From: Minisyncoccia bacterium
GTDB lineage: Bacteria > Patescibacteriota > Minisyncoccia > UBA6257 > 2-01-FULL-56-20
DNA length: 64,000 nucleotides
Direction of reading: 5' to 3'
NCBI GenBank assembly: GCA_049997875.1
Contig: JBEKRC010000001.1
Coordinates: 108,609 to 172,608, forward strand
Part shown: positions 33,369 through 48,967 of the stretch, in pieces
How positions within the stretch are numbered: the first letter of the stretch is position 1
How the letters are laid out: each line of letters starts with the position of its first letter
Translations under genes and position numbers: made by a program
Notes under the pieces: generated by a model
Databases searched by the model: none
What the model saw: only the letters and a program-made list of their open reading frames with translations
Told to the model about the DNA's origin: nothing

Positions 33369-35552
33369 ATGAACATCAAGAAGTTGATCACTTCTTTTCT
33401 TATCCTAGCTGCGCTTGCCGCTTCGTCGGCGCTGCTCCTGTCAAACGAAAATTGGTTCTCCTCTTCTCGCAGTCCCGCGGCGCAGGTCTCGTTAGGTAAC
33501 GACGAAAGCGCGCCGCCGATCGCGAGCAATAATGCCTTTCTACCAACGACCCCGCAAGGTGCGGGCATCACGCAAGACGAAAACGACGATTCCGCCGCCG
33601 TAGACGACCCCAACAATCTCACCGGCGTGGTCGTCAATTCTTTCATGAACAACATTCTTGCCTCAAACCCTTCGGGACCGCAGCAAAACGCCAATGGCGA
33701 TGACACGCTCACCTTCAACCCCAACGAGGACCAGATGACGGGCGCGCTTGCCCAGAGCGCCACGCTTCAGCACTTATACATCCCGAATTGGGATCTTGAC
33801 GCGCTTGAACAAAAACTCAATATCGCGACCACCTCTTCCCCCGATGATATCGCGAACTACAGCGATGCCCTCAACGGCATTTTTAATAAAAATTTCGTGA
33901 GTTCCGGCGTTCTTACCATTGCGAACGGGGATAACGCCGATATAGGCAGCGCTCCTCTCATGGCATCCTCAACCGACGCCGCCCTCGCGGCCACTGCCCA
34001 GCTTCGAACGCCCGCGAATCTCGTGGACTTCCAAAAAAGTCTGGTAAAGGTACTTGTGTATCAGAAAAACGCCCTCGCTCTTATTGAAGGCACAAGTGGC
34101 GACCCCGTCAGGGCATCGCTCATCTTCCAAGCCCAGGAACCGAGGTACAACGCCGCCCTGCAGGATTTTGAGAATGAACTGCAAAAGGCGCAATCCAGTG
34201 GAACATTTTCGTTCGGTAATGTTCCCGCGCGCAGCGGCACCGGATGGTCCGCCGCGGTTCTGGGCCTCATTGGGATACGAACCGCGTATGCCCAATGGCC
34301 GACGTTTGACTTTAGTGTTTTCGCGAACCAAATAGAGCAGTTCATTAAAACCATCCTTCTTCAGATCGTGAAGAACTCTCTGATCAGCTTCATTCAGCAT
34401 AAAATAGTAAGTTGGATATCCAATCCCAAAAATCCAAAGTTCATCCAGCAGTGGGGAGGGGAGTTATCAAACGCGTTCGTGGCAGCGGCCAACAGTACGC
34501 TTTCACAAATAAGCCCGAACCTTTCCCCGTCGTTCGGACCCTTAGTAGGCTCTGCGCTTAAACCCCAAAAGAGTGCGGTATCCGGCATCCAATCAACTTT
34601 AGATAACGACTTAGCGAACCTCGGGACAAACCAACAAAATTTCTACAACAACTTCAGCCAGGGAGGCTTTGATGCATATTTTGACCTTTTTAAACCGGAC
34701 AACAACTTCTTCACTGCATTTATGGATACGCAGGATGCCATGCTTGCCGCCGGCGGCAAGTCGGCGCAAACCGCACAAACGAAGGCGGTTGCCGGCCAAG
34801 CCAGCCGCGGCAACCAACTTTGCAGCGACGGTAGCAATCCTTACGCAACCCACATGGGTTGCGACGAAGGATCTCTCGCAACCACCACCTACGGCAATGA
34901 GTGTATGTCCATCGGCGGCACCCCGCTCGGCCCCCCGGACAAAGTTAACAACGGGGGACTTTGCGCCAACGGTGACGATCCTACCGTCACGTCCCCGGAC
35001 CAAGTAACAAAGGCGATTCAAAGCGCAGGCCTCAAAAGTCCCATTGACCTTATCGTGAACGGCGACGACGTTACAGGACTCGTGATCGCGATGACAGAAT
35101 CGGTTCTGACGAACCTTGTGAACCAAGGCCTCAATGCTGTGGAAACTGGCCTTTCCGGCGCACAGAACCCGTCGCCCGCGACCGTCGCCGCAGATAACGC
35201 AGCGGTGAACGGCACCGTAGCCAGCAGCACGCCGCCGGCACAACCCGTCACCTGCATGCCGAAATCGCAATCGGCCACGATCGCGCTCGGAAGCAGCAAT
35301 CAGGCCTATGTTACGTTCGAGGTCACCGGCGGCGTCATGACGGCAACCAGCACAAACCCAACGTATACCTGGACCGCAAACTGGCCAGTTGGAGGAGCGT
35401 GGGGAGTGTGGGGAAGCACGGGGACGGGAACCGGAAGCACCTTCTCGGTGACTTTCACCGCGAATACCGCGGGGACGTACAACTATACCGCTACCGTGAC
35501 CGCTTCGCCGGGCGGCAGCGACTTCTGCCAGGTCCAAATTACGGCATACTAG
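33369..35552 (+). CDS. Large secreted or membrane-anchored hypothetical protein (727 aa); first gene of the T4SS-like operon
   Basis: An N-terminal signal/TM segment (ITSFLILAALAASSALLL), a long Asn/Gln/Ser-rich body, several Cys pairs, and a C-terminal Thr/Gly-rich beta-rich region. No family recognised. Confidence 0.6.
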   Translation: MNIKKLITSFLILAALAASSALLLSNENWFSSSRSPAAQVSLGNDESAPPIASNNAFLPTTPQGAGITQDENDDSAAVDDPNNLTGVVVNSFMNNILASNPSGPQQNANGDDTLTFNPNEDQMTGALAQSATLQHLYIPNWDLDALEQKLNIATTSSPDDIANYSDALNGIFNKNFVSSGVLTIANGDNADIGSAPLMASSTDAALAATAQLRTPANLVDFQKSLVKVLVYQKNALALIEGTSGDPVRASLIFQAQEPRYNAALQDFENELQKAQSSGTFSFGNVPARSGTGWSAAVLGLIGIRTAYAQWPTFDFSVFANQIEQFIKTILLQIVKNSLISFIQHKIVSWISNPKNPKFIQQWGGELSNAFVAAANSTLSQISPNLSPSFGPLVGSALKPQKSAVSGIQSTLDNDLANLGTNQQNFYNNFSQGGFDAYFDLFKPDNNFFTAFMDTQDAMLAAGGKSAQTAQTKAVAGQASRGNQLCSDGSNPYATHMGCDEGSLATTTYGNECMSIGGTPLGPPDKVNNGGLCANGDDPTVTSPDQVTKAIQSAGLKSPIDLIVNGDDVTGLVIAMTESVLTNLVNQGLNAVETGLSGAQNPSPATVAADNAAVNGTVASSTPPAQPVTCMPKSQSATIALGSSNQAYVTFEVTGGVMTATSTNPTYTWTANWPVGGAWGVWGSTGTGTGSTFSVTFTANTAGTYNYTATVTASPGGSDFCQVQITAY

Positions 35553-35555
35553 CGC

Positions 35556-38183
35556 ATGAAAAAGGAAACCTCTGTGCGGAAAAACTTGCTAAGAATTGTC
35601 GCTGTCTCGTCCCTATTGATCCTTTTTGCATCCCTCGTGCCGATCCATCTCGCGCGCGCCAATTGGCTCACGGAAGGCCTCGGTCAAATCATAGACTTCA
35701 CCTACACGGTCATTGGGAAGATTGTTTTTATAATTGGCTTCTTGTTTGCCTTCATTGTTGGCATAGTCATAGCCATTGAGGCATGGATTGTCGGAGTCAT
35801 CCTCAACATGAACAATGGCGTCTTTGATGCGGCGGTGGTACAAACCGGCTTCCAGGTCAGTCTCTCTATCGCCAACATGGGGTTCGTGCTGGGAATCATC
35901 ATCATCGCAATCGCGACCATATTAAAAAGGGAAACCTACGGCATAAAGCAACTGCTGTGGAAACTGGTGGTCGCGGCAATCCTCGTGAACTTCAGCTTAG
36001 TCATCATGGCCCCCATTTTTGGATTCGCTAACAACCTCACGTTATATTTCCTAAACTGCGTTAACCCGGGCGGAGGAGGGTGTGGCGGGAATGGAAGCGC
36101 CCTTACGAGTGATGCTGATTTCGCAAAGGCAATCGCAGGCGCATTCAACCCCCAAAAGAGCTTCTTGTCCCTCAACACCCTTAACGCTACTTCAAGTACG
36201 CAAGTCCAGCCCGGGCCGGCCGTTACGGGCTTCTTTGGGACTGTTGGAGGAGATATCAGCAAAATTCTCGTTCCCATCTTCTCGGTCCTCTTCATAGCAG
36301 CCACGCTTGTGGTAATGGCTATTGTGCTCGCCGTTTTTGCATTCATGCTACTTGTTCGTTATGTGTATATCGCGATACTCGCGGTACTTGCGCCGTTCGC
36401 ATGGCTCATGTGGGTTTTCCCCAAAACAAAGCATCTTTGGGACCAGTGGTGGGACACCTTTATTAAATGGACTATGTTCGCGCCCATTGTCGTTTTCTTC
36501 ATGTATCTCGCGGTGGCAACGGCGACCCAGATGAGTTCCGGGAATACCACCGGCACCCAAACTTTCGCGGTCTATACCGCCGCTAACAGCAACACGCTTT
36601 GGGCAACAATTTCCCAATTCTTTGGCAATCTGCTTACCCCCATCATCCAAAACGCCCTAAATGAATTCGTCCTTGTCGGTCTCATGGTTGGCGGCATGAT
36701 CGCGGCGGAGAAGATGAGCATCATGGGCGCGAGCGCCGCGGTAGGTGCGGCGAAGTCGGTGGGCAACGCCGCGAAGGGCTACGTAGGAAAACAAACCAAG
36801 AAGGGTGCGCGGTATACATACCAGCATGCTAGAATCCCATTCACCCAGGTTACTGGCACAAGAGTAAGCGAAGCGTTGCAAAGAAGCAGAATCCCACTCG
36901 TTTCGGCAGCCGGAAGAAAGGTGGCAGGTCTTACGGAAGCAGGAGGGAAAGATCTCGTGGCTAAGGCCGCAAAAGATCTTGATGTGGACGGCATGAGTAA
37001 AGAAAAATTGGTTCGGGCGACAGAAGGAGCGAGAGGAAATGACAACACGCTCGCGCTCATTCAGCGAGCTCAGAAGGAAGGGTGGCTGGGTTCGCTTAGA
37101 AGGGTGGGCGGAGAAAAGGACCTCAGCACCTGGATGCAAAAGAATCAGCAAACCTTTAAGGACTACGATCACGGGAAGCTTCAGGGCGATGTTAACGATT
37201 CTCTTATGTCGAACGAGATCATGAGGAAGATTGCCGCAGCGCAGGGGAAGGCTGAGGGCACCGCGCGAGTGGCCGATACACAGGGAATTCTAGGAACGGC
37301 AGGGGCCGACGTCTCCGCGCGAACATTGCAAGAGACCAGCAATACCTTAGAAAAGGATATAGCAACGGCCAAGGGAAATGCACAGGCTTCTGCCCAGATT
37401 ACCGACGCCCACGGAATTTTGGGAACCATGAATGCCACGGTATCAGCCCAAGAATTGAAAAAGGCGAGCGAGGCTTTCCTGGAAGACATTGGGAAGGTAA
37501 ATCTTAATGCTCTCGACGACAGGGATATAATCAACTTCAGGGGACTGCATATGAGCGTTGCCGGCCTTAAACAGGAAAAGAAGGATGCGCAGGCCGATAT
37601 AGTTATGGCAGATTTGGCGATGGATGGCGCCGCAAGAACCGGGACGATGAACTTCCAAGGAAATAACGTCGCAATAGCAGACGTTGAAAGGAAGGTGGCT
37701 GATGCAAAAACGGCCGCAAACGATGCAATGCGTCATGCCGCAGACACTACAACGGTTGATGGGATGGCGGGCACAGCTGGAGACCTTATGCGCAGAGAAG
37801 CGGAAAAATTCTTCGCTGGTAAAGATAGAGCCAATTTCGCAAGGGCGCATCCCGAGGACATCTTTGGTGGGGTGCCCAAATTCGGCCTTTCCGAGCAGGC
37901 GATTGGCGCCCTGAGCCAGGCGGTTGCGCACGGTATCGCCATAAAAAATCCGCAGCTGACGCCCTCCGTGGTGAGTAAGCTTGACAACAAAGAAGCCCTT
38001 GACCGTTTCGACAACCGCTATAGAGCTGCCATTAATAGTGCCCCAATAAGCCAAGCCGACAAAGATATTTTGCTCAGGCGCCACGAACAGACTATGATTA
38101 GGCGCTACTATGTAGATGTCGGCGGTGGAGGCGGAACGAGCTCTACGCCCGCACCTGCCCCAGGTCCCTCGGGAACACCCTAG
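35556..38183 (+). CDS. VirB6/TrbL-like polytopic membrane protein with a C-terminal hydrophilic repeat-containing extension of about 500 aa
   Basis: The N-terminal 380 aa or so contain about 8 hydrophobic helices, with an architecture like VirB6/TrbL. The C-terminal half is Ala/Gly/Lys/Asp-rich and carries internal 40-aa repeats (...DTQGILGTAGADVSARTLQE... / ...DAHGILGTMNATVSAQELKK...). The call rests on topology and operon context; no diagnostic motif was seen. Confidence 0.5.
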   Translation: MKKETSVRKNLLRIVAVSSLLILFASLVPIHLARANWLTEGLGQIIDFTYTVIGKIVFIIGFLFAFIVGIVIAIEAWIVGVILNMNNGVFDAAVVQTGFQVSLSIANMGFVLGIIIIAIATILKRETYGIKQLLWKLVVAAILVNFSLVIMAPIFGFANNLTLYFLNCVNPGGGGCGGNGSALTSDADFAKAIAGAFNPQKSFLSLNTLNATSSTQVQPGPAVTGFFGTVGGDISKILVPIFSVLFIAATLVVMAIVLAVFAFMLLVRYVYIAILAVLAPFAWLMWVFPKTKHLWDQWWDTFIKWTMFAPIVVFFMYLAVATATQMSSGNTTGTQTFAVYTAANSNTLWATISQFFGNLLTPIIQNALNEFVLVGLMVGGMIAAEKMSIMGASAAVGAAKSVGNAAKGYVGKQTKKGARYTYQHARIPFTQVTGTRVSEALQRSRIPLVSAAGRKVAGLTEAGGKDLVAKAAKDLDVDGMSKEKLVRATEGARGNDNTLALIQRAQKEGWLGSLRRVGGEKDLSTWMQKNQQTFKDYDHGKLQGDVNDSLMSNEIMRKIAAAQGKAEGTARVADTQGILGTAGADVSARTLQETSNTLEKDIATAKGNAQASAQITDAHGILGTMNATVSAQELKKASEAFLEDIGKVNLNALDDRDIINFRGLHMSVAGLKQEKKDAQADIVMADLAMDGAARTGTMNFQGNNVAIADVERKVADAKTAANDAMRHAADTTTVDGMAGTAGDLMRREAEKFFAGKDRANFARAHPEDIFGGVPKFGLSEQAIGALSQAVAHGIAIKNPQLTPSVVSKLDNKEALDRFDNRYRAAINSAPISQADKDILLRRHEQTMIRRYYVDVGGGGGTSSTPAPAPGPSGTP

Positions 38184-38204
38184 CCAGTTCCCTCCACAGA
38201 AACC

Positions 38205-39389
38205 ATGATTACTATCACAACACAACAGGCACGGAACCGATGGGATTATCTTACTGAAGCCCTCCGCTTCGCTCTATTTTCCGATGTGAACGCTGACTTC
38301 ATTATGAAAACCTGCGAGCAGGAACATCTCCCCTTAGAGAAAGGACTGGACGTCCTTGCGATTTCTGGCTATGTGCTTCTTGGTTTCCTTCATCCGGAAG
38401 ACCTCGCCGGCGAACTAAAAGATGAATTGAATCTGGACATCAAGATCTGCACCCCTATCGCGGCCGCGATAAACTCAAGGGTTTTTTCACCTTTGAGGCA
38501 AGACATAGACAAAGTTTACGAACCCCTAAGTAAGTTGGCTGCAGGTCCGAAAATAATCCGAGATGTCGGTCCCGTACCCATGGCGGCGAAACCAGCAGCG
38601 CCCATTGCGCCCGCGCCAAAGGCGGAACCTGTGCCCACACCAAAAATGTCCGACGTAGGATGGTCGCAAGCGATGCCGAAACAGCCGGCGGTGAAATTGG
38701 GCCAAGCCGCAACGCCGCCGCCAGTGGTGCCAAGAGCACCAGCGGCGCCCGCGCCTCTCACCCCAACTACAATACCACCTACGCGGGGACCCATTGGTGA
38801 GTTTGAGCGACTCGCAGTGAAGCGCAGCGAGGGAATTGTGCCTCCTGCTCCACTTTCCGGTACTCCGAAGCCATCTGTTCCGCCCATCCCGCCTGCGCCA
38901 TCACGGCCCGCAACTCCTGTCGCGCCACCTCCGGGACCCGCGCCGTTGATCCTCCATGAAGACACATCAGCCAAGCCGCAACAGCGGGCGCCGGATTTCC
39001 ATTTTGATCTTCCCTCGGAAAAATTTACTGCGCAAAAGGGGTCCGCGTCGTTACCGATAAGGCCAGCAGTGGTTGAATTCGGCAAGGTGCCTCCGCCGCC
39101 CGCACCAAAAACGGTCGTCTCAACGCCGCGCGTTGTCCACTACACGGAATACAAATCTCCTTCGCCAGAAAATCCCACGCCTTCAGGTCCCGCAGCGCAA
39201 AGAAAAATAACCGAGCTTACCGCAACGCCATCGACGCAACCATCAACCTCGTTAAAGACGCCGGTGCTGCCCACGCCGTTGAAGGCGCTTCCCTCCGAAC
39301 CGACTGCGCCGGAGCTCCCCATGCCGCCGAAATTTCCGACCACGCCAACTCCGCCGGTACCACCGCCTCCACCATCAAAAAATAATTGA
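38205..39389 (+). CDS. Proline-rich hypothetical protein (394 aa)
   Basis: An N-terminal region of about 100 aa is followed by an extended Pro/Ala/Thr-rich low-complexity region (PAAPAPLTPTTIPPT...PPVPPPPPSKNN). No signal peptide is evident. Confidence 0.5.
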   Translation: MITITTQQARNRWDYLTEALRFALFSDVNADFIMKTCEQEHLPLEKGLDVLAISGYVLLGFLHPEDLAGELKDELNLDIKICTPIAAAINSRVFSPLRQDIDKVYEPLSKLAAGPKIIRDVGPVPMAAKPAAPIAPAPKAEPVPTPKMSDVGWSQAMPKQPAVKLGQAATPPPVVPRAPAAPAPLTPTTIPPTRGPIGEFERLAVKRSEGIVPPAPLSGTPKPSVPPIPPAPSRPATPVAPPPGPAPLILHEDTSAKPQQRAPDFHFDLPSEKFTAQKGSASLPIRPAVVEFGKVPPPPAPKTVVSTPRVVHYTEYKSPSPENPTPSGPAAQRKITELTATPSTQPSTSLKTPVLPTPLKALPSEPTAPELPMPPKFPTTPTPPVPPPPPSKNN

Positions 39390-39479
39390 CGGGATGGCGG
39401 ACGGCGGACAAAAACGGACGAAGGAATCCTCCGGTTCCTGCCGGGGCTTTGGCGGCAAACTTGGGCTATAATATAGTGA

Positions 39480-40010
39480 ATGCAATTCCAGGTCCCGCAA
39501 TTTATAGATACGGAGGATAAGATCGTGGGGCCCTTGTCGCTCCGGCAATTCATTTACATCGGCATCGGCGCGGGCATCTCCGCCTTGCTTTATTTCATAC
39601 TCCAGACGTGGCTGTGGGCTATTCTTTCATTCTTCCTTGTGGGCGGCGCCATTGCGATCTCATTCGTAAAAATTGAAGGGAGGCCGCTTCCCAAAATCAT
39701 CCTCTCGGCATTCTCCTTCTATTGGAACCCGCAAACGTACGTGTGGCAGCCGGAACATCCGGCGGTCCAAAAGCATAAGACGCCCCCGGAAGCGAAGCCG
39801 ATCAAAAGCAGCGTTCTTGAGAAGATCGCCATGGGCATGGCGCTCCACAAGAGCTGGGAAAAGGTCCAGGTGGGGGTAAAACCGAAGGCAAAGGAGCCCC
39901 AGAAGAAGCCCCAGAAGAAGCTCAAAGAACAAAAAGTGAGCGGCCATTACGAGATCTTCCGAAAGCTCGCCGGCGACCGCGAAGCGGCGCGGAGAGTGGA
40001 CTACCGCTGA
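39480..40010 (+). CDS. PrgI/VirB3-like small membrane protein
   Basis: MQFQVPQFIDTEDKIVGPLSLRQFIYIGIGAGISALLYFIL plus a second TM helix fits the two-helix PrgI/VirB3-like architecture. It sits immediately upstream of the VirB4 homologue. Assignment is by architecture and position. Confidence 0.5.
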   Translation: MQFQVPQFIDTEDKIVGPLSLRQFIYIGIGAGISALLYFILQTWLWAILSFFLVGGAIAISFVKIEGRPLPKIILSAFSFYWNPQTYVWQPEHPAVQKHKTPPEAKPIKSSVLEKIAMGMALHKSWEKVQVGVKPKAKEPQKKPQKKLKEQKVSGHYEIFRKLAGDREAARRVDYR

Positions 40011-40032
40011 TAATGATGAGAAAATACAAACG

Positions 40033-40710
40033 ATGGCGTCAAAACAGGATCTTGGCAATTCCCTTGACCTTGTAAGCATCAAGGAGATCAGGAACAACAC
40101 GGCCATTCTTAAGGACGGCAGTATGCGGCAGGTCGTCCTTGTGGGCGGCGTGAACTTCGCGCTCAAATCGGAATCGGAACAAAATCTCCTCACGGGAGGG
40201 TACCAAAATTTTTTGAATGGCATTGAGTTCCCGCTGCAGATCGTGGTGCACTCGCGGAAGGTGAATATTGACAAATACGTGCAAGGGCTCCTCGCGCGGA
40301 AAGAGGCGGAACAAACCGCGCTGCTCCGGAGCCAGATTGACGAATACGTTGAATTCATAAAGGGATTTGTGGAAAAGAACGCGATTATGGAAAAGACGTT
40401 TCTTGTGGTCGTTCCTTTTTATCCACTGAGCATTGTGTCAACAAAAAAAGCCGTGGGCTTTCTCCCGTTCTTTAAAAAGAAACAGGACAAGGAGACGGAA
40501 ACAAAGGACGCAGCCGAGACCGAGCGCATCTTCCAGGAAAATCTGGCGCAGCTCATCCAGCGCACGAGCCAGATCACAACCGGGCTTCTCGGCATGGGGC
40601 TTGAGGCAACCGTCTTGAACGACGAAGCGCTCGCGGAACTTTTCTACAACTTCTACAATCCGCAGACCATTGAACGAAAGGATATGGCCCTGCCGAAAGA
40701 AGAAAAATGA
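40033..40710 (+). CDS. VirB4-family N-terminal domain (5' part of a split or frameshifted VirB4 gene)
   Basis: The 225-aa product ends 4 nt into the next ORF (ATGA overlap, different frame). The downstream ORF lacks roughly 200 aa N-terminal to its Walker A compared with full-length VirB4/TrbE proteins of about 800 aa. Confidence 0.45.
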   Translation: MASKQDLGNSLDLVSIKEIRNNTAILKDGSMRQVVLVGGVNFALKSESEQNLLTGGYQNFLNGIEFPLQIVVHSRKVNIDKYVQGLLARKEAEQTALLRSQIDEYVEFIKGFVEKNAIMEKTFLVVVPFYPLSIVSTKKAVGFLPFFKKKQDKETETKDAAETERIFQENLAQLIQRTSQITTGLLGMGLEATVLNDEALAELFYNFYNPQTIERKDMALPKEEK

Positions 40711-42446
40711 ACAATATGCCCGAGAATCACAATCAACTCAAAGATATAAAACAAATCATCGCGCCAGCGGGAGCGCAGGTGTTCCCCAACTACCTCAAAA
40801 TCGGCGACAAGGTTGCGAAGACCTTTTTTATACTTTCTTACCCCCGCTACCTTGCGACTGGCTGGTTTGAGCCGCTTATCAACCTCCCCAACCTTTTTGA
40901 CGTTTCCATTTTTGTAAATCCGATTGATACGGGCACGGCGCTCAAAAATCTCCGCAAGAAGGCCGGCCAGCTGGAGTCGCAGCTGAATGACGAGGAGGAC
41001 AAGGGTCTCGTGCGCAATCCGATGCTGGAGACCGCCATCAAAGACGTGGAGGGGTTGCGCGATTCCCTCCAGGAATCGCAGGAGAAACTTTTTGACACCG
41101 GCGTCTACATCACGATCTACGCGGACACCCAGGACGACCTCGTGCGGTTGGAGAGCAAGCTCGTGAGCATGATGGAAGCGAAGCTCATTTATCTGAAACC
41201 GGCGCTTTTTGAACAGCTGGAAGGGCTTTTCTCGGTCCTTCCGCTCAACGAGGACAAATTGCAGATATATACGCCGATGAACACAAGCCCGATTTCCTCT
41301 TTTTTCCCGTTCGTTTCGGAGGACCTCTCCTCAAATCAGGGAATTATGTACGGCATTAATTTGCACAACAGCAACCTCGTGATCTTTGACCGCTTTTCGC
41401 TGGAGAACGCGAACCAAGTGGTGTTCGCAAAATCCGGCTCCGGCAAGTCGTACACTACAAAACTGGAGATCATCCGCTCGCTCATGGCGGGCGTGGACAT
41501 GGTGATCGTGATTGACCCGGAGAACGAATATCAGCGACTCGCCGAAACCTTCGGCGGCAGCATGTTCAACATCTCGCTTTCGGCGCACGAGCACATCAAC
41601 CCGTTTGACCTCCCGCTCGTCCCCGAGGGTGAAACGCCGTCCGACGTCCTCCGGTCGCACATTGTGACGCTCGCGAGTTTGATCAAGCTTATGTTGGGGA
41701 AAATCACCCCCGAAGAGGACGCTATCCTTGACCGCGCGATCACGGAAACCTACGCCTCGCGCGAAATCGTCGTTGGATTGGATTTCGCGGGAAAAGAACC
41801 GCCACTTCTGGGAGACCTCGCCACCGTTCTTCGCAACCTTGAGGGGGGCAGGGGCATGTCGGAGAAACTCTACAAATACACCGAAGGAAGCTTCGCGGGG
41901 CTCCTGAACCAGCCGACCAACATTGACGTCAATAACCGCCTCATCGTCTTCTCCATCCGCGACCTTGAGGAAGAGCTGCGTCCCATCGGGATGTTCGTCG
42001 TCCTCAACTTCATCTGGAGCCTGATCCGCGCGAAACTCGCAAAGCGGCTGCTCTTCATTGACGAGGCGTGGATCATGATGAAGAATGACGACTCGGCCAC
42101 GTTCCTTTTCGGCCTCGTGAAACGCGCACGGAAATATTTTCTCGGCGTTTCCACGATCACGCAGGACGTGGAGGACTTCCTGCGCTCTCCCTACGGGCGT
42201 CCCATCATCACGAATTCATCTCTGCAAATGCTTTTGAAGCAGGCACCGGCGACGATTGACATCGTGGCGAAAGCGTTCGACCTTACGGATGCGGAAAAGA
42301 ACTTCCTTTTGAGCGCGGAGGTGGGTACCGGAATCTTCTTTGCCGGCAAGCGCCATGTCGCGATCCAGATCGTGCCGTCTTATTTTGAAGACCAGATTAT
42401 CACCACGAATCCGGAGCAGCTATTGGAGGAGAAAAAAGACCTGTAA
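40707..42446 (+). CDS. VirB4/TrbE/CagE-family type IV secretion ATPase (C-terminal ATPase part)
   Basis: Walker A VVFAKSGSGKSYTTK, Walker B RLLFIDEAWIMM, and flanking VirB4-like conserved blocks (NSNLVIFDRF; HINPFDL; GVSTITQDVEDF). Confidence 0.8.
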   Translation: MNNMPENHNQLKDIKQIIAPAGAQVFPNYLKIGDKVAKTFFILSYPRYLATGWFEPLINLPNLFDVSIFVNPIDTGTALKNLRKKAGQLESQLNDEEDKGLVRNPMLETAIKDVEGLRDSLQESQEKLFDTGVYITIYADTQDDLVRLESKLVSMMEAKLIYLKPALFEQLEGLFSVLPLNEDKLQIYTPMNTSPISSFFPFVSEDLSSNQGIMYGINLHNSNLVIFDRFSLENANQVVFAKSGSGKSYTTKLEIIRSLMAGVDMVIVIDPENEYQRLAETFGGSMFNISLSAHEHINPFDLPLVPEGETPSDVLRSHIVTLASLIKLMLGKITPEEDAILDRAITETYASREIVVGLDFAGKEPPLLGDLATVLRNLEGGRGMSEKLYKYTEGSFAGLLNQPTNIDVNNRLIVFSIRDLEEELRPIGMFVVLNFIWSLIRAKLAKRLLFIDEAWIMMKNDDSATFLFGLVKRARKYFLGVSTITQDVEDFLRSPYGRPIITNSSLQMLLKQAPATIDIVAKAFDLTDAEKNFLLSAEVGTGIFFAGKRHVAIQIVPSYFEDQIITTNPEQLLEEKKDL

Positions 42447-43318
42447 TGGCCGAGGCGGCGACACAACCAAAATCAGAATCTGCGCCTCCCGCGGGCGGAG
42501 GTGCGGCGCGATCCCAGCCGAAAATCACGCTTACCGAGGGACTTCTCATCGGAGGCGGTCTTACTGTGGTGTGTGTCATCAATCTCATACCGATTGCTGG
42601 TGACATAACGGCGCCCGTCGCCGGCGGATTGATGTTTTTTTACCTTTATATGAAAGGATTAAGGGGAACTAATGTCGTCGCTACCAATATAGTCGGTTAT
42701 GCCGCCGGGATGTTCCCGATTGTCCAGGCACTTCCAACCCCACTCGTTGCCTGGGTTGTCGTGATAATTATTGACCGGATGCCCGTGGTTGAAAAAATCG
42801 CCGAGAAGGCAGAAGTGGTAACGGGAGGAGGCGAGGCGGGTGCCCTCGGCGGAGCCGCAGCGGAGGGTGCGGCAGTAGAAGGTGCAGCGGTTGAGGGAGC
42901 GGCCGCGGGAGGGGCGGCGGGAGCTACCGCCGCTGCAGAAGGAGTGCCAGCCGGAGCCGCAGGTGGCGCGCCCTCGGCGCAAACTGGCATCTCCGAAGGC
43001 GGTGCCACAGGACCACCGCCCGGCACGGAAGGACCCACGACGCCGGAAGCGGGAGGCCCCTCGCCGATAGCCGGCGAAGAAATGCCCCCGGGAGAAGCAG
43101 GAGCAACAGAAGAAGGGGCCGGCAAAGAAGCGGAAGCGGAAAAAGAATATCGAGAAATCGAGGCGGCGGCGGCACCTGCAATGGTCCCACCGGTGGAAGC
43201 GGCTATAAAGGAAGAATTCCCATCGGAGGCGGCGGGGATCCAGGCCCTTACTGAAAAGGCGAAGGAAACACAAGCAACTGAGGATAAGGCAGAGGACGAA
43301 GAAGAACCTGCGAGCTAG
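42446..43318 (+). CDS. Membrane protein with an Ala/Gly/Glu-rich low-complexity C-terminal half
   Basis: 2-3 N-terminal hydrophobic helices, then GGGEAGALGGAAAEGAAVEGAAVEGAAAGGAAGATAAAEG... and an acidic tail. Its start codon overlaps the VirB4 stop. Confidence 0.5.
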   Translation: MAEAATQPKSESAPPAGGGAARSQPKITLTEGLLIGGGLTVVCVINLIPIAGDITAPVAGGLMFFYLYMKGLRGTNVVATNIVGYAAGMFPIVQALPTPLVAWVVVIIIDRMPVVEKIAEKAEVVTGGGEAGALGGAAAEGAAVEGAAVEGAAAGGAAGATAAAEGVPAGAAGGAPSAQTGISEGGATGPPPGTEGPTTPEAGGPSPIAGEEMPPGEAGATEEGAGKEAEAEKEYREIEAAAAPAMVPPVEAAIKEEFPSEAAGIQALTEKAKETQATEDKAEDEEEPAS

Positions 43319-43346
43319 GTCGCATGCCGCGTGTGATACAATATAA

Positions 43347-44048
43347 GTGAAGGCTGCTATGAAAAAAGAATTATTTGGTGTTCTTTGCGTCGCCACGCTT
43401 TTCGCTCTCCTCGGATGGGTCCGCGGGGTAGCGGATGCCCAAACCTCCGGTTCGCAGGTCTTCATCACGTGGCAAGCCGTTGGCAGCTATGTGCCAGCTT
43501 CTTATAAAGACAAAGCTCTGCCGGGACCTACCTCCTTAATCCTCGCGTCCGTTCAGGTCGTTTCACAGGGGAAGCTCGTTGATCTTAAAAACCAGCTTGT
43601 GTACTGGTACCAAGACGGCACTTATTTGAGCGGCGGGACGGGGGCGCAAAGCATCACGTTCACGCCGGGCGTTTCTCCGCCCGACACCACGGAATTGAAA
43701 GTGGAAATCCCGAATTACAGCGGCGGGACGCTCCTGCACGCAGTGGACATCCCCATTGTACAGCCCGTCATTGTAATCAAAACCCCGTATTTGAACAATC
43801 AATTCTCCGATAACCCGCTCACGCTCACGGCGTTGCCATACTTCTTCAATGTGCCTTCTCCTTCAGCACTTGTACTCTCATGGTCGGTAAACGGACAGAC
43901 AGGAGCCAGTGCGGAAAACCCGTACGAAGCGCAAATTACTCTTCCGCAGGGCACTTCCGCGGGGACGACGCTCAGTGTCGCGCTTACCGCACAAAATCCT
44001 CTTGATGCCACCTCGGCAACCGCTTCAAAAGTCCTTACGTATGAATAA
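43347..44048 (+). CDS. Secreted hypothetical protein (signal peptide; 233 aa)
   Basis: MKKELFGVLCVATLFALLGWVRGVADAQ is a signal peptide. The body is Thr/Ser/Gly-rich and beta-rich. Confidence 0.5.
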   Translation: MKAAMKKELFGVLCVATLFALLGWVRGVADAQTSGSQVFITWQAVGSYVPASYKDKALPGPTSLILASVQVVSQGKLVDLKNQLVYWYQDGTYLSGGTGAQSITFTPGVSPPDTTELKVEIPNYSGGTLLHAVDIPIVQPVIVIKTPYLNNQFSDNPLTLTALPYFFNVPSPSALVLSWSVNGQTGASAENPYEAQITLPQGTSAGTTLSVALTAQNPLDATSATASKVLTYE

Positions 44049-44376
44049 AATGAATAGCTTAGCGGTACAATTCACCGTTTCTTCAAATCTCCCGGGTAAC
44101 TATGCCACCTCAACCGGCTTTGGGGGCTTTGTCGCCAATTTCTATTCCCTTGCGCTCCTTTTCGCGGGAATCCTTGCCTTCGGCGCGATCGTCTACGGCG
44201 GCATTAAGTATGCGGTGAGTCGCGGCAACCCCTCGGCCGAGAGCGAGGGAAAAAGCTGGGTCACGAACGCGCTCCTCGGGCTCCTGCTCCTGGCCGGCGC
44301 GTACATCATCCTCTATACCATTAATCCGCAGCTCGTTACCCTTAAAATCGCGACACCGGCACAATCACAACCATGA
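44041..44376 (+). CDS. VirB2/TrbC-like two-helix pilin candidate (111 aa)
   Basis: Starts at ATGAATAAAATGAATAGC. It has two hydrophobic helices (FYSLALLFAGILAFGAIVYGGI and WVTNALLGLLLLAGAYIILYTI) separated by a short polar loop, which is the VirB2-like hairpin topology. The track ORF 43909-44376 is N-terminally over-extended. Confidence 0.45.
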   Translation: MNKMNSLAVQFTVSSNLPGNYATSTGFGGFVANFYSLALLFAGILAFGAIVYGGIKYAVSRGNPSAESEGKSWVTNALLGLLLLAGAYIILYTINPQLVTLKIATPAQSQP

Positions 44377-45653
44377 GAAGGCGTATTCTTATCGTTATTG
44401 TCGTTCTTGTTATCGCAGGGGCCGCGGCAATACTCTATCTTCTTCTTTCCAAACAATCTTCCGTTTCTACGACGCCGTCCGGTACGTCGGGCGCTTTGCC
44501 TCAAACAGGAACCCAGTCGGGAACCCCGGGAAACGCCGCCGGGGGTACTGTGGTAACCTTTCCCGGCACCGGGATAACCGGCGCAGGTGCTGCCGTAAAA
44601 TTCGGGGTGGTATCAAACGAGCCGGTTTTTGACTATTTCGTGGACGCAAAAAATAACGCACTAGCCATTGAACCTGACGGGAAAATCGCGTACATCACGA
44701 ACGGCGAGGTGAGCTACCTCAATTCCAACACGATCCAAAACCTAATCAGCGCCGATTTCTCCTATGATGGCGCGAAGGTAGTAGTGAACTTCGGTGATAC
44801 AACAAACCCACAAACCAGTGTTTTTGACGTCGCCGCAAAGGCGTGGGCGCCCCTTCCCTCGGGAATTATTTCGCCCGTCTGGTCTCCGATTGATTACCAT
44901 CTCGCGTACCTGGAGGCCGCGACCGGGACCACCACCTTATTCCTGATTGACGGATCAAAGGCGGGCAGCAAGCCGACGCAGCTTGCGACATTCAGCGCCG
45001 TTGATCTCTCCCTTAGATGGATTGATAAAAACCGGCTCATGGTCTACGGCAAGCCCAGCGCCTACGCGGACCCCTCGGCGTGGATTTTTAATCTCACCTC
45101 AAAGGCTGTCACGCCGATCATAAGCGAAACGCCGGGGCTTGAAATAACGTGGATGAAGGCGCCCACCACCACCACTGGTATCTCCTTCTTTAGCGGCCAA
45201 GGAGGAAGGGGAGGAAGTGTGCACCTTATAAACATAACGGGCGCCGTGACTAAGGACCTTAGCTTCTTCACGCTCGCCTCAAAATGCGTTTTCAACTTTG
45301 AGGCTGTGGCGGCCGTTCCTTCTGCTGTTTTAGCCACGACGACCGCCACTTCCACTGCCGCAACCCCCGTTTCGCCTGCGCCCGTCCTCGCGCTCTACTG
45401 CGCCGTGCCCCGTGCCGGGCAGGACCTTCTCGCCTTTAGTCATCTCCCCGACGATTATGAACAGATGGCATTGTTCACCCTGGACGACATTTATCGCATT
45501 GACACCACAAACGGCGCGCTTGTTGACGCGCTCGCCGGGCAGAATATAGATGTCTCGGACCCAAAGGTGTTTGGCGCAGCCCTCTTCTTCGTCAACCGCT
45601 ATGATCAAAAACTCTACGGGCTCTCGCTCGGCACTTCCACCGCCGCGCAATAG
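44373..45653 (+). CDS. N-terminally membrane-anchored extracytoplasmic protein (426 aa), possibly a beta-propeller
   Basis: A TM helix (ILIVIVVLVIAGAAAILYLLL), then a Thr/Gly-rich linker, then repeats with weak TolB-like character (IEPDGKIAYI; PVWSPIDYHLAYL). It is the last gene of the co-directional operon. Confidence 0.5.
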   Translation: MRRRILIVIVVLVIAGAAAILYLLLSKQSSVSTTPSGTSGALPQTGTQSGTPGNAAGGTVVTFPGTGITGAGAAVKFGVVSNEPVFDYFVDAKNNALAIEPDGKIAYITNGEVSYLNSNTIQNLISADFSYDGAKVVVNFGDTTNPQTSVFDVAAKAWAPLPSGIISPVWSPIDYHLAYLEAATGTTTLFLIDGSKAGSKPTQLATFSAVDLSLRWIDKNRLMVYGKPSAYADPSAWIFNLTSKAVTPIISETPGLEITWMKAPTTTTGISFFSGQGGRGGSVHLINITGAVTKDLSFFTLASKCVFNFEAVAAVPSAVLATTTATSTAATPVSPAPVLALYCAVPRAGQDLLAFSHLPDDYEQMALFTLDDIYRIDTTNGALVDALAGQNIDVSDPKVFGAALFFVNRYDQKLYGLSLGTSTAAQ

Positions 45654-45658
45654 GACTG

Positions 45659-46093
45659 CTACGAAAGCGGCTTTATAACCACATAACGCTCTTTGCCCTC
45701 TCCCGAACTCTCGGTCGTCACCTCGGGATGCAACGCGAGCTCCGTATGCACAATTCTCCGCTCATATGAGTTCATCGCGGGAAGCGGCACCGCATTTTTC
45801 GTCGTGACCGCTTTCTTCGCCGCCGCGCGCGCAAGCTCGGCGATCAGGTTCTCGCGCTCCTGCCGGTAATTGTTCACGTCAAGAAAAAAGAGGTCAATTT
45901 GATTCTTCTTCGCAATCATTTGGAAAAGATGGTTCACGCTCTCTACGATGGCGGCGAGGTTTTCTTTAAGAAGATTCCCGCCGTCGTAGATGAAGAGCGA
46001 ACCACGTTTTTCCTCCGGCTTCATTTCCAACCGATAATCGCGGAATCCCATTGCCTCCACGATATTTTTGGCAATCGCTTCCCAGCTCTCCAT
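45659..46093 (-). CDS. jag: Jag/KhpB-like R3H-domain RNA-binding protein
   Basis: A C-terminal R3H motif (ERRIVHTELA), a KH-like N-terminus, and the conserved position downstream of yidC. Confidence 0.75.
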   Translation of the reverse strand: MESWEAIAKNIVEAMGFRDYRLEMKPEEKRGSLFIYDGGNLLKENLAAIVESVNHLFQMIAKKNQIDLFFLDVNNYRQERENLIAELARAAAKKAVTTKNAVPLPAMNSYERRIVHTELALHPEVTTESSGEGKERYVVIKPLS

Positions 46094-46134
46094 TTCAAGG
46101 TACTATTCCATACTCCCGCGCCGAAATCAAGCCT

Positions 46135-46183
46135 GACCAGCACCACTTTTGCGTTTGCAGAAAATGCAAAAGTGGTGCTGGTC
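46135..46183. terminator. 18-bp perfect inverted repeat (GACCAGCACCACTTTTGC ... GCAAAAGTGGTGCTGGTC) between yidC and jag
   Basis: Exact reverse-complement arms with a 13-nt loop, in the intergenic spacer of the yidC-jag operon. Confidence 0.4.
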
Positions 46184-46195
46184 GGGCCTCTCCCG

Positions 46196-46915
46196 CTACA
46201 CCGCCGCGGTCTCCCCTTTTTTGAAATGCTTGTTGATGATCAGTTGTTGCCCTACGGAGAAGAGTGACGTGACAAGCCAGTAGAGACCGACGGCGGCGGG
46301 CAAGCTGTAAAAAATAAAAATGGTGACGAGAGGCCCGATGAAGACCATCTGCCGCGCCATCTTTTCCGCGGGGGAAAGCGGCGCATTGCTCTTGGGGTCC
46401 CGATAGATGGCAAGGCGCGCCTGCAGGTACTGGGCGAGTGCGGCGAGCAGGATGAGGATAATGCTCGGGGCCGCGAGATTGATGGCGCCGAGGAAAAGAG
46501 GGTTGATGGCCTGCGGCACCGCTACAAAGGAATACAGCCCCGCGAGTTCCCCTGGCGCGAGCGCAGAACGCACCACCCAGTAGAGAGCGATCATGATCGG
46601 CAGTTGGATGACGAGAAGGATGATGCTTGAGAAGGGACTTACTCCGTGCTCCTTATAAAGTTCCATCAGCGCCTGCGCCTGCTTTTCTCTGTCGTTTTTG
46701 TGCAACTCCTGAATCTTTTTAATTTTCGGCTGGATGCGTTGCATCAGCATCTGCTGTTTGGCGCCTTTGTGGAATAATGGATACAGCACCAAGCGGATAA
46801 GAATGGTGACAAATATTATGGCAATCCCAAGATCGCGGAACGAGATCGTCTCGTAAAAATAAACGAGAAGATTAAGAATGGGTCGGTAAAGGATGGCTTG
46901 ATAGAGATAGCTCAT
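46196..46915 (-). CDS. yidC: Membrane protein insertase YidC/Oxa1 (short Gram-positive-type form)
   Basis: 239 aa with 5 TM helices and the conserved YidC core (ILIRLVLYPL...QKMQRIQPKIKKIQE...). It sits in the conserved rnpA-yidC-jag order. Confidence 0.85.
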   Translation of the reverse strand: MSYLYQAILYRPILNLLVYFYETISFRDLGIAIIFVTILIRLVLYPLFHKGAKQQMLMQRIQPKIKKIQELHKNDREKQAQALMELYKEHGVSPFSSIILLVIQLPIMIALYWVVRSALAPGELAGLYSFVAVPQAINPLFLGAINLAAPSIILILLAALAQYLQARLAIYRDPKSNAPLSPAEKMARQMVFIGPLVTIFIFYSLPAAVGLYWLVTSLFSVGQQLIINKHFKKGETAAV

Positions 46916-47244
46916 GGTCGGTGATTGGCTGTTGCGCGAGGAGGGAGGGCCCGACGCAAAAGTTCCTTAAATTGCTGTTTGGTGAGGGTATTGATTTTGG
47001 GAGTGAGGATGACAAGGAAATCGGTGCCCGCGCCGCCGGCCGCGAGGAGCGTTGCTTTCGTCTGCCGCTTCCAAAAATTCCTCTTCGCGGCGTTCTTGTG
47101 CACGGAGGCGTTTGCGATGACTCCAATCCTAATTTTCTCTTGTATGTTCGGCTTTGTTTTTAATACAAAGTATGGCGTTGACGCCGTTCCCCATCGCCCC
47201 GCCCTAAAATCCCGGCTCGGCAACCGTGATGGTTTAGAAAGCAT
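46912..47244 (-). CDS. rnpA: Ribonuclease P protein component
   Basis: RIGVIANASVHKNAAKRNFWKRQ matches the RnpA motif. Position between rpmH and yidC. Confidence 0.8.
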   Translation of the reverse strand: MLSKPSRLPSRDFRAGRWGTASTPYFVLKTKPNIQEKIRIGVIANASVHKNAAKRNFWKRQTKATLLAAGGAGTDFLVILTPKINTLTKQQFKELLRRALPPRATANHRP

Positions 47245-47249
47245 CGCTG

Positions 47250-47384
47250 TTAGACGCTGATTCGCCGCCTCCTTTTTGCCCTGCGCCGTGCGAGAACGCG
47301 CCGCCCGCCTGGCACCCGTTGCCGCCGCAAAAATCCGTGCGTCCTTTTCCTTTTTTTCTTTTTCGGGCTGTAGGTAAACGACAT
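47250..47384 (-). CDS. rpmH: 50S ribosomal protein L34
   Basis: [44 protein letters not shown] (44 aa). The start was taken at the internal Met of the over-extended track ORF 47250-47555. Confidence 0.85.
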
Positions 47385-47506
47385 CTTGAAGAGTTTATCA
47401 CGGGATTTAAAAATGTGCCAGCGAGCTGTGGGGCCCTTAGAACAGGTTGTGCACATCCCATCCACAAACGGCGCGGTTTGACTTTTTGACGGGAGGGGCG
47501 TAAGGG
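47385..47506. promoter_or_regulatory. rpmH-dnaA divergent intergenic region: candidate oriC/dnaA promoter region with degenerate DnaA-box-like 9-mers
   Basis: Contains CCATCCACA (7/9 to TTATCCACA) and GTTTATCAC. Conserved rpmH | dnaA synteny. Confidence 0.35.
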
Positions 47507-48877: not shown

Positions 48878-48967
48878 TACTAAGTAAAGTTCCGCTATCC
48901 ACAAAAATTAAAAATACATTAATAATAGAATCTTAATGTTTTAATAATGTCTTAATATAATTACCCT
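48878..48967. promoter_or_regulatory. dnaA-dnaN intergenic AT-rich region with a near-consensus DnaA box (CTATCCACA at 48895-48903): candidate oriC/DNA-unwinding element
   Basis: About 80% AT over 70 bp (AAAAATTAAAAATACATTAATAATAGAATCTTAATG...) adjacent to an 8/9 DnaA box. Confidence 0.45.

What the first reader, a model, noticed from the sequence alone, without database searches (positions are those of the whole stretch)
40033..42446. VirB4 homologue encoded as two overlapping ORFs (N-domain 225 aa + ATPase 579 aa) joined by an ATGA overlap
In the 579-aa ATPase ORF the Walker A lies at about residue 245, whereas in full-length VirB4/TrbE it lies at about residue 450. The upstream 225-aa ORF ends 4 nt inside the ATPase ORF in a different frame. 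This is either a genuine split VirB4 (translationally coupled; such splits are known in some T4SSs), a programmed frameshift, or a sequencing or assembly indel.
Basis: partly seen in the sequence, partly recalled or inferred. Interest (0 to 1): 0.55.

Follow-up and report, generated by a model that had tools for sequence, protein, structure and literature searches.

The report
Naturally split VirB4 secretion ATPase
The motor ATPase of a type IV secretion system in this ultra-small (Patescibacteria) bacterium is really encoded as two adjacent genes, a conserved arrangement already described in the literature and not a frameshift or a sequencing error.

Summary
ORF1 (40033-40710, 225 aa) ends in a TGA that overlaps the first ATG of ORF2 (40707-42446, 579 aa). 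Walker A sits at ORF2 residues 241-248.

The two ORFs together equal one complete VirB4. They align contiguously to a fused 790-aa relative in a syntenic locus (ORF1 to residues 11-210, ORF2 to 222-785). A model of that relative matches R388 TrwK/VirB4 end to end.

The split is real and old.
- The identical junction occurs in 8 contigs from separate samples and assemblers.
- Forty-two species-level relatives keep two genes, with spacers of -8 to +163 nt (median 9.5) in all three relative frames.

This excludes an assembly indel and a conserved programmed frameshift.

The break lies inside the VirB4 N-terminal domain, not between the N-domain and the ATPase. The ATGA overlap is lineage-specific. 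The conserved ORF2 start ('MP...') is the ATG at 40716.

ORF1 is the TrsD-like ('TraC-like', PF26593) protein. Quinonero-Coronel et al. 2025 already report it as the most abundant T4SS component next to virB4 in Patescibacteria. Monoderm plasmids have the same PrgI-TrsD-VirB4 layout. The cluster is chromosomal and lies beside dnaA.

Verdict: already known, low interest. The one modest addition is that fused and split forms coexist within the group.

The parts
39480..40010 (+). PrgI-family (VirB3-like) small membrane protein, 176 aa, directly upstream of ORF1
   Evidence: Pfam PF12666 PrgI, E 7.6e-11, 42.9 bits against a cut-off of 27. The same gene precedes the homologues in L046, L052-L059 and the Miltoncostaea plasmid.
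40033..40710 (+). ORF1, 225 aa: TrsD-like / 'TraC-like' (PF26593) protein, equal to the first half of the VirB4 N-terminal domain encoded as a separate gene
   Evidence: NCBIfam weak hits to VirB4_plasma positions 103-219/894, TIGR00929 positions 20-192/792 and TrsD/TraD positions 21-142/201. BLASTP to fused L046 residues 11-210, 47% identity, E 8e-58. hhalign of A1 against the fused family: probability 100%, E 7.6e-70. Foldseek top 13 hits are all TrwK/VirB4 chains. PF26593 is assigned in precomputed annotation.
40707..40710 (+). ATGA stop/start overlap (first possible ORF2 start codon plus the ORF1 stop)
   Evidence: Read directly from the sequence. Present only in the window lineage and L002; absent in L001, which is 94% identical.
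40716..40718 (+). Second in-frame ATG of ORF2 (MPEN...), the start codon position conserved in orthologues, 5 nt after the ORF1 stop
   Evidence: Nearly all of the 42 intact orthologues start ORF2 with 'MP...'. L001 has only this ATG.
40707..42446 (+). ORF2, 579 aa: second half of the VirB4 N-terminal domain plus the VirB4 ATPase C-terminal domain
   Evidence: NF045971 conju_CD1110, 386.6 bits (cut-off 325), profile positions 184-734/752. Pfam P-loop_TraG, AAA_10, DUF87, and TraC_F_IV at residues 83-180. PDB 4ag5 VirB4 C-terminal domain, E 1.2e-39, over residues 212-566. 62% identity to fused L046 residues 222-785.
41427..41450 (+). Walker A motif AKSGSGKS (ORF2 residues 241-248)
   Evidence: Pattern search.
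42048..42065 (+). Walker B-like motif LLFIDE (ORF2 residues 448-453)
   Evidence: Pattern search.
35556..38183 (+). 875-aa polytopic membrane protein of the same operon, putative VirB6-like channel component (inferred)
   Evidence: No Pfam or NCBIfam family. The translation has many hydrophobic segments. A 735-aa counterpart sits in the same position in L046 and the gene is also present in L052 and L056.
43909..44376 (+). T4SS pilin (VirB2-like) gene of the same operon; the true start is probably near 44041-44050
   Evidence: Pfam PF18895 T4SS_pilin, 27.0 bits against a cut-off of 26.6. The listed GTG start overlaps the upstream gene by 140 nt.

Best explanation
This is a naturally split virB4. 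ORF1 (a TrsD-like, 'TraC-like' protein) carries the first ~210 residues of the VirB4 N-terminal domain. ORF2 carries the rest of that domain plus the Walker A/B ATPase domain. Both are translated as separate polypeptides from one tightly packed operon, in the order PrgI/VirB3-like, ORF1, ORF2. ORF2 initiation occurs within a few nucleotides of the ORF1 stop, which favours roughly matched production of the two proteins. Inferred, not shown: the two polypeptides associate non-covalently to rebuild a VirB4-like protomer. Within it, the ORF1 module would serve as the membrane-proximal piece that docks on PrgI/VirB3 and mediates N-domain contacts, and ORF2 would form the hexameric motor. The system is the chromosomal, origin-proximal MPF-FATA-like T4SS of Patescibacteria. 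It is not a plasmid conjugation module.
For: Shown by tool results:
- Both ORFs exist as described.
- ORF1 and ORF2 map contiguously onto one fused 790-aa protein in a syntenic locus, at residues 11-210 and 222-785. Only about 11 linker residues lie between them.
- The ORF1 family matches the N-terminus of the fused family with probability 100%, E 7.6e-70.
- The fused protein's AlphaFold model aligns end to end with R388 TrwK/VirB4: 8rtd_O, E 2e-28, 805 columns, TM 0.55.
- The ORF1 model's top 13 PDB hits are all TrwK/VirB4.
- Pfam TraC_F_IV spans residues 169-394 of the fused P0130, crossing the break point. The break also falls in a predicted coil with lower pLDDT.
- The two-gene state is identical in 8 independently sampled contigs and conserved in 42 species, with a median spacer of 9.5 nt and 34/42 spacers at or below 30 nt.
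- Of 150 representatives of the ORF1 family at the 50%-identity level, the median length is 226.5 aa and only one is longer than 700 aa.
- The same PrgI - TrsD-like - 'DUF87' ATPase order occurs on Miltoncostaea and Peribacillus plasmids.

From the literature:
- TrsD is remotely homologous to the VirB4 N-terminus. It is the most abundant T4SS component in Patescibacteria, with 1,664 homologues next to virB4, and it is essential in Ca. Southlakia epibionticum (PMC12102498).
- In R388, VirB3 wraps around the VirB4 N-terminal domain (residues 15-400), and VirB4 dimerises through its N-domains (PMC9259494).
Against: No experiment or complex prediction here shows that ORF1 and ORF2 bind each other or PrgI. 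Both AlphaFold models have only moderate confidence (pLDDT 66 and 71, pTM 0.56 and 0.50), and the ORF1 fold matches are individually weak (E about 1e-2). ORF1 scores far below the curated NCBIfam TrsD cut-off (25 against 200 bits). It had no hit in the local Pfam copy or by sequence against the PDB. Translational coupling is inferred from spacing alone. Eight of 42 orthologous spacers exceed 30 nt, so tight coupling is not universal.
Confidence: 0.88

Rival explanations
1. Programmed -1 ribosomal frameshift or transcriptional slippage. The ribosome slips back one base on the A-run (A AAA TGA) at the end of ORF1 and continues into ORF2, making a fused full-length VirB4 (...KEEK-MNNMPEN...) as the main or a regulated product.
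For: ORF2 is in the -1 frame. A run of five A's (40703-40707) directly precedes the TGA, so a -1 slip of the Lys tRNA would read ATG and continue into ORF2. Fused proteins with this architecture exist in related lineages.
Against: The site is not conserved. L001 (94% identical) has GCA ACA TAG at this point. Across 42 orthologues the relative frame is 0, 1 or 2 (11/15/16 loci), spacers range from -8 to +163 nt, and most ORF1 stops are TAA followed by non-slippery sequence. ORF2 has its own conserved ATG ('MP...') in nearly every species. Five A's are fewer than the runs usually associated with transcriptional slippage (general knowledge).
Confidence: 0.03
2. Sequencing or assembly indel: the organism has one intact ~800-aa virB4, and a 1-nt error split it in this assembly.
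For: The frames differ by one base and the break follows a short homopolymer. Some related long-read MAG loci (L042, L045, L048) do show extra frame breaks that look like such errors.
Against: The identical 225-aa protein is on 18 contigs. The identical 80-nt junction is in all 8 retrieved contigs, which come from different samples and pipelines: ENA, JGI and Logan. The 120 best ORF1 homologues are all 215-257 aa. Forty-two other species keep two genes with different junctions.
Confidence: 0.01
3. ORF1 is an independent accessory protein (TrsD) that shares ancestry with the VirB4 N-terminus but has evolved its own role, such as assembly chaperone or regulator. On this view it is not a stoichiometric structural half of the ATPase protomer.
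For: TrsD has no assigned function, and in Gracilibacteria TrsD homologues are mostly not next to virB4 (PMC12102498). Thirty-eight of 150 family representatives are longer than 260 aa and carry extra N- or C-terminal extensions. Some spacers exceed 100 nt.
Against: Closely related fused proteins retain both parts collinearly at 47% and 62% identity, with only a short linker. A single Pfam domain (TraC_F_IV) crosses the break. ORF2 alone lacks the first ~210 residues present in every full-length VirB4 profile.
Confidence: 0.08

Closest known systems
TrsD + VirB4 pair of the Patescibacteria T4SS (Quinonero-Coronel et al. 2025, Microb Genom, PMC12102498)
   Same: The phylum is the same: homologues are named Minisyncoccia or Paceibacterota. 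The gene order is the same (PrgI/VirB3-like, TrsD-like, VirB4), with a VirB2-like pilin nearby. The location is chromosomal, next to dnaA/dnaN. The paper reports 2,272 TrsD homologues, 1,664 of them associated with virB4.
   Different: Nothing essential differs; this window is one instance. The paper does not discuss fission versus fusion: 'split' and 'fission' do not occur in its text, and its single use of 'fusion' and of 'fused' concerns VirB3-VirB4. Two points are added here. TrsD plus the short VirB4 align contiguously to fused ~790-aa proteins of sister lineages. The split forms sampled make one clade.
TrsD/TraD + TrsE/TraE-type ATPase of pGO1/pSK41-type monoderm conjugative plasmids (MPF-FATA, NCBIfam NF041427)
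   Same: A small TrsD protein sits immediately upstream of a ~656-661-aa 'DUF87' VirB4 ATPase. This is seen on Peribacillus pSHB26, where it is annotated trsD, and on a Miltoncostaea plasmid, where PrgI precedes it. ORF1 hits the TrsD/TraD profile at E 1.1e-5.
   Different: ORF1 scores 25 bits against a curated cut-off of 200, so it is not a member of that NCBIfam subfamily. Identity to the plasmid proteins is only 19-28%. The Patescibacteria system is chromosomal. According to PMC12102498 most such clusters lack a relaxase; the window was not searched for one.
Full-length VirB4/TrwK (R388) and CD1110-family VirB4 of monoderm ICEs
   Same: ORF2 passes the CD1110-family cut-off (386.6 bits). 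The fused relative's model superposes on TrwK over about 800 columns. Walker A and B motifs are present.
   Different: Here the first ~210 residues are a separate polypeptide. ORF2 covers only profile positions 184-734 of 752.
VirB3-VirB4 fusion proteins of some T4SSs (mentioned in PMC12102498)
   Same: Both show that the gene boundaries around the VirB3 / VirB4-N-domain module are evolutionarily plastic.
   Different: The direction is opposite (fusion rather than fission). No PrgI-ORF1 fusions were found among 150 family representatives.

Membership tests
VirB4/TraC/CagE T4SS ATPase (MPF-FATA-like, CD1110 family) | Score above the curated family cut-off | tested here: met
   ORF2 scores 386.6 bits on NF045971 against a cut-off of 325, but it covers only profile positions 184-734/752.
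VirB4/TraC/CagE T4SS ATPase (MPF-FATA-like, CD1110 family) | Walker A and Walker B nucleotide-binding motifs in a RecA-like C-terminal domain | tested here: met
   AKSGSGKS at residues 241-248 and LLFIDE at 448-453. PDB 4ag5 VirB4 C-terminal domain matches at E 1.2e-39.
VirB4/TraC/CagE T4SS ATPase (MPF-FATA-like, CD1110 family) | Complete N-terminal domain on the same polypeptide | tested here: not met
   The first ~210 residues are encoded by ORF1. ORF1 and ORF2 align to residues 11-210 and 222-785 of a fused relative. The pair, not ORF2 alone, equals a VirB4.
VirB4/TraC/CagE T4SS ATPase (MPF-FATA-like, CD1110 family) | Encoded together with other T4SS membrane components (VirB3-like, VirB6-like, pilin) | tested here: met
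   PrgI passes its Pfam cut-off (42.9 against 27 bits). T4SS_pilin just passes (27.0 against 26.6 bits). The VirB6-like assignment of the 875-aa ORF rests only on topology and synteny.
VirB4/TraC/CagE T4SS ATPase (MPF-FATA-like, CD1110 family) | ATP hydrolysis and hexamer formation | not testable with these tools
   Requires biochemistry.
TrsD/TraD family (NCBIfam NF041427; pGO1 prototype) | Score above the curated cut-off (200 bits) | tested here: not met
   ORF1 scores 25.4 bits, E 1.1e-5, over residues 16-127. It is a remote homologue, not a subfamily member.
TrsD/TraD family (NCBIfam NF041427; pGO1 prototype) | Small protein encoded between a PrgI/VirB3-like gene and the VirB4 ATPase gene | tested here: met
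   The window order is 39480-40010, then 40033-40710, then 40707-42446. In the Miltoncostaea plasmid a PrgI-family gene precedes the TrsD-like gene and the DUF87 ATPase. In Peribacillus pSHB26 the gene before trsD is annotated only as a hypothetical protein.
Pfam PF26593 'TraC-like' | Match to the Pfam model | tested here: inconclusive
   Precomputed annotation assigns PF26593 to the identical protein and to all listed homologues, both stand-alone and fused. The local Pfam copy returned no hit, even at E up to 10, presumably because it lacks that model.
Programmed -1 ribosomal frameshift site | Slippery sequence and fixed frame relationship conserved among orthologues | tested here: not met
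   The relative frames 0/1/2 occur in 11/15/16 loci, spacers range from -8 to +163 nt, and the junction sequences are unrelated.

The most novel reading that the evidence does not exclude
The fission is functionally meaningful and not neutral. Encoding the VirB3-binding first half of the VirB4 N-domain as a separate polypeptide would let these cells build VirB4 assemblies in which that module is sub-stoichiometric or exchangeable, for example present only on 'central' and not on 'outside' VirB4 subunits. The coexistence of fused and split forms in sister Paceibacteria lineages would then be a natural experiment on T4SS inner-membrane-complex architecture. The split forms make one clade nested among fused ones in a rough NJ tree.
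Probability: 0.12. Interest if true: 0.4.

Novelty: already known. Interest (0 to 1): 0.13.

Why it matters
For annotation, the 225-aa 'hypothetical protein' and the 579-aa 'ATP-binding protein' should be read together as one VirB4 equivalent. They should not be flagged as a pseudogene or 'repaired' as a frameshift. For biology, the T4SS of Patescibacteria, including its TrsD homologue, is reported as essential for the epibiotic lifestyle (PMC12102498). Knowing that TrsD is literally the detached first half of the VirB4 N-domain gives it a concrete structural role to test. Beyond that, this is an ordinary instance of a described arrangement.

Tried and rejected
- The local Pfam scan of ORF1 gave no family, even at E up to 10.
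- PDB sequence searches with ORF1 alone and with the ORF1 family profile gave nothing meaningful: one chance polyhedrin hit at E 0.93, then zero hits.
- I looked for PrgI(VirB3)-ORF1 fusion proteins among the longer family representatives, as 'Rosetta-stone' evidence for an interaction. None showed PrgI similarity by Pfam or BLASTP.
- A frameshift at the A5-TGA site was considered and rejected because it is not conserved.
- An assembly indel was rejected on the basis of independent contigs.
- The nomenclature review PMC12857230 and a further full-text search for split VirB4 added nothing beyond PMC12102498.
- The NJ tree has no support values. Its sequences were gathered by similarity to two queries, so the fission-versus-fusion polarity is only suggestive.
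Full report
OBSERVATION. The window contains an ATG-initiated ORF at 40033..40710 (+, 225 aa) and another at 40707..42446 (+, 579 aa). The sequence reads ...CCG AAA GAA GAA AAA TGA ACA ATA TGC CCG... The ORF1 stop (TGA, 40708-40710) therefore overlaps an ATG at 40707-40709, and ORF2 lies in the -1 frame. Walker A (AKSGSGKS) is at ORF2 residues 241-248 and a Walker B-like LLFIDE at 448-453. In a fused relative, Walker A is at 449-456.

WHAT THE TWO ORFS ARE. ORF2 passes the curated cut-off of the CD1110 family of VirB4-like conjugal ATPases (386.6 against 325 bits), but it covers only profile positions 184-734 of 752. It also matches VirB4_plasma positions 289-893/894 and TIGR00929 positions 247-726/792. 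Its Pfam hits are P-loop_TraG, AAA_10, DUF87 and the end of TraC_F_IV. Residues 212-566 match the solved VirB4 C-terminal domain 4ag5 at E 1.2e-39.

ORF1 has weak hits to the missing N-terminal profile positions: VirB4_plasma 103-219, TIGR00929 20-192. It also hits the stand-alone TrsD/TraD family at positions 21-142/201 (E 1.1e-5, far below the 200-bit cut-off). ORF1 has no hit in the local Pfam copy. Precomputed annotation assigns PF26593 'TraC-like' to it and to all its homologues.

THE JOIN IS CONTIGUOUS. One related locus, L046, has the same gene order: polytopic membrane protein, Pro-rich protein, 176-aa PrgI, VirB4, small TM protein. Its VirB4 is a single 790-aa ORF. ORF1 residues 12-215 align to its residues 11-210 (47% identity, E 8e-58). 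ORF2 residues 14-578 align to its residues 222-785 (62% identity). Only a short variable linker separates the two parts.

A profile of 34 ORF1 homologues aligns to columns 14-233 of a profile of 44 fused proteins with probability 100%, E 7.6e-70. An AlphaFold model of the fused protein (pLDDT 70.6) superposes on R388 TrwK/VirB4 over its whole length: 8rtd_O, E 2e-28, 805 alignment columns, TM 0.55. The ORF1 model alone (pLDDT 66) gives TrwK/VirB4 chains as its top 13 PDB matches, each individually weak at E about 1e-2.

The TrwK N-terminal domain is residues 15-400 (PMC9259494). Pfam TraC_F_IV spans residues 169-394 of the fused P0130. The break at about residue 215 therefore lies inside the N-terminal domain, in a predicted coil. 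It does not lie between the N-domain and the ATPase domain.

NOT AN ARTEFACT, NOT A FRAMESHIFT. The identical 225-aa protein is on 18 contigs. The 8 places shown have ORF1 overlapping the downstream gene by the same 4 nt; that gene is the complete 579-aa ORF where the contig reaches far enough. They come from different ENA, JGI and Logan samples, and all 8 carry the identical 80-nt junction.

The 120 best homologues of ORF1 are all 215-257 aa, down to about 60% identity. Among the best 150 cluster representatives at 50% identity, the median length is 226.5 aa and only one exceeds 700 aa.

I fetched 49 species-level genomic loci, all Patescibacteria MAGs. Forty-two have intact separate ORF1 and ORF2 homologues. 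In these:
- the spacer between the ORF1 stop and the ORF2 ATG ranges from -8 to +163 nt, with median 9.5 and 34/42 at or below 30 nt;
- the relative frames 0/1/2 occur in 11/15/16 loci;
- the stop is usually TAA;
- the junction sequences are unrelated.

L001, at 94% identity, reads GCA ACA TAG ACA ATA TGC: no A-run and no overlapping ATG. A conserved slippery site or a fixed frame relation is therefore absent. ORF2 begins 'MP(D/E)...' in nearly all species, which in the window corresponds to the ATG at 40716, 5 nt after the ORF1 stop. The ATGA overlap is lineage-specific and may not even contain the start codon that is used. Overlapping stops and starts are in any case routine in this operon: TAATG at 42446 and ATGA at 44373.

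FUSED AND SPLIT FORMS COEXIST. A search with the fused L046 protein returned 120 listed proteins. All but one (670 aa) are 775-804 aa, at 59-100% identity. Where a source names them they are Colwellbacteria, Harrisonbacteria, Parcubacteria or 'Patescibacteria group', and they carry PF26593 plus the ATPase domains. In a neighbour-joining tree of the ATPase part, all 43 split sequences form one clade nested among fused sequences. The tree is rooted on two plasmid homologues, has no support values and rests on similarity-biased sampling. This is compatible with a single old fission in this sublineage, but the polarity is not settled, because the plasmid outgroups are themselves split.

CONTEXT. 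The genes sit in a + strand operon: a 727-aa ORF, an 875-aa polytopic ORF, a Pro-rich ORF, PrgI, ORF1, ORF2, a 290-aa ORF, a 233-aa ORF, a T4SS pilin and a 426-aa ORF. The operon ends about 0.5 kb before yidC (46196-46915, -), which is followed by dnaA (47507-48877) and dnaN (48968-50080). The cumulative GC-skew minimum is at about 44-46 kb. This is the chromosomal, origin-proximal T4SS described for Patescibacteria.

COMPARISON WITH WHAT IS KNOWN. Quinonero-Coronel et al. 2025 (PMC12102498) make the following points:
- It was the most abundant T4SS component in Patescibacteria: 2,272 homologues, 1,664 of them associated with virB4.
- It is listed as essential in Ca. Southlakia epibionticum ML1.
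- These clusters often lie near dnaA/dnaN.

Monoderm plasmids show a comparable layout. The Miltoncostaea plasmid has a PrgI-family gene, a 337-aa TrsD-like protein and a 661-aa DUF87 ATPase in that order. Peribacillus pSHB26 has an annotated trsD (219 aa) directly upstream of a 656-aa DUF87 ATPase. The arrangement is therefore already known. Two modest points are added here. TrsD plus the short VirB4 is an exact, collinear partition of a full-length VirB4, with the break inside the N-domain. Fused and split versions both exist within Paceibacteria.

MECHANISM (inferred). The two polypeptides are made from adjacent, mostly closely spaced cistrons and probably reassemble into a VirB4-like protomer. 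In R388, VirB3 wraps around the VirB4 N-domain and VirB4 dimerises via its N-domains (PMC9259494). On that basis the ORF1 module is the likely docking piece for the PrgI/VirB3-like protein encoded just upstream. No interaction was tested here.

VERDICT. The arrangement is already described, so interest is low.

Noticed in passing
window 33369-50080: The whole T4SS operon (+ strand, 33369-45653) ends about 0.5 kb before yidC (46196-46915, -), followed by dnaA (47507-48877) and dnaN (48968-50080). The cumulative GC-skew minimum is at about 44-46 kb. The operon therefore points toward the putative origin, which would be head-on to the leftward replication fork (inference). L046 has the same T4SS-then-yidC(-) layout.
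   Followed up: partly
window 38205-39389 and 42446-43318: Two low-complexity ORFs lie inside the operon: a Pro-rich 394-aa ORF and an Ala/Gly/Glu-rich 290-aa ORF with an N-terminal hydrophobic region. Neither has a Pfam family. L046 has shorter counterparts (255 aa and 163 aa) at the same positions.
   Followed up: no
window 33369-35552: A 727-aa ORF with no Pfam family sits 3 nt upstream of the 875-aa VirB6-like ORF. It may be a further T4SS component.
   Followed up: no
L042 6001-6886; L045 6001-6743; L048 6001-7202: In three related MAG loci the ORF1 or ORF2 homologue is interrupted by additional frame breaks (for example ORF2 cut to 63, 15 or 202 aa). These look like indel errors or pseudogenes. 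They contrast with the clean, reproducible split in the window.
   Followed up: partly
proteins P0270, P0210, P0227, P0224, P0228 and others: Thirty-eight of 150 representatives of the ORF1 family are longer than 260 aa. Excluding the one fused 797-aa protein (P0130), they carry N-terminal (up to ~225 aa) or C-terminal (up to ~220 aa) extensions. These show no similarity to the window's PrgI or ORF2, and the nine of them scanned against Pfam gave no confident family. Their nature is unknown: mis-called starts, contig-end fragments or real extra domains.
   Followed up: partly
window 43909-44376: The T4SS pilin ORF as listed starts at GTG 43909 and overlaps the upstream gene by 140 nt. The real start is probably one of the ATGs around 44041-44050 (MNKMNS...), next to the upstream TAA.
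   Followed up: partly
window 42444-42448 and 44373-44376: Two further stop/start overlaps occur in the same operon: TAATG between ORF2 and the next gene, and ATGA between the pilin gene and the 426-aa ORF.
   Followed up: yes
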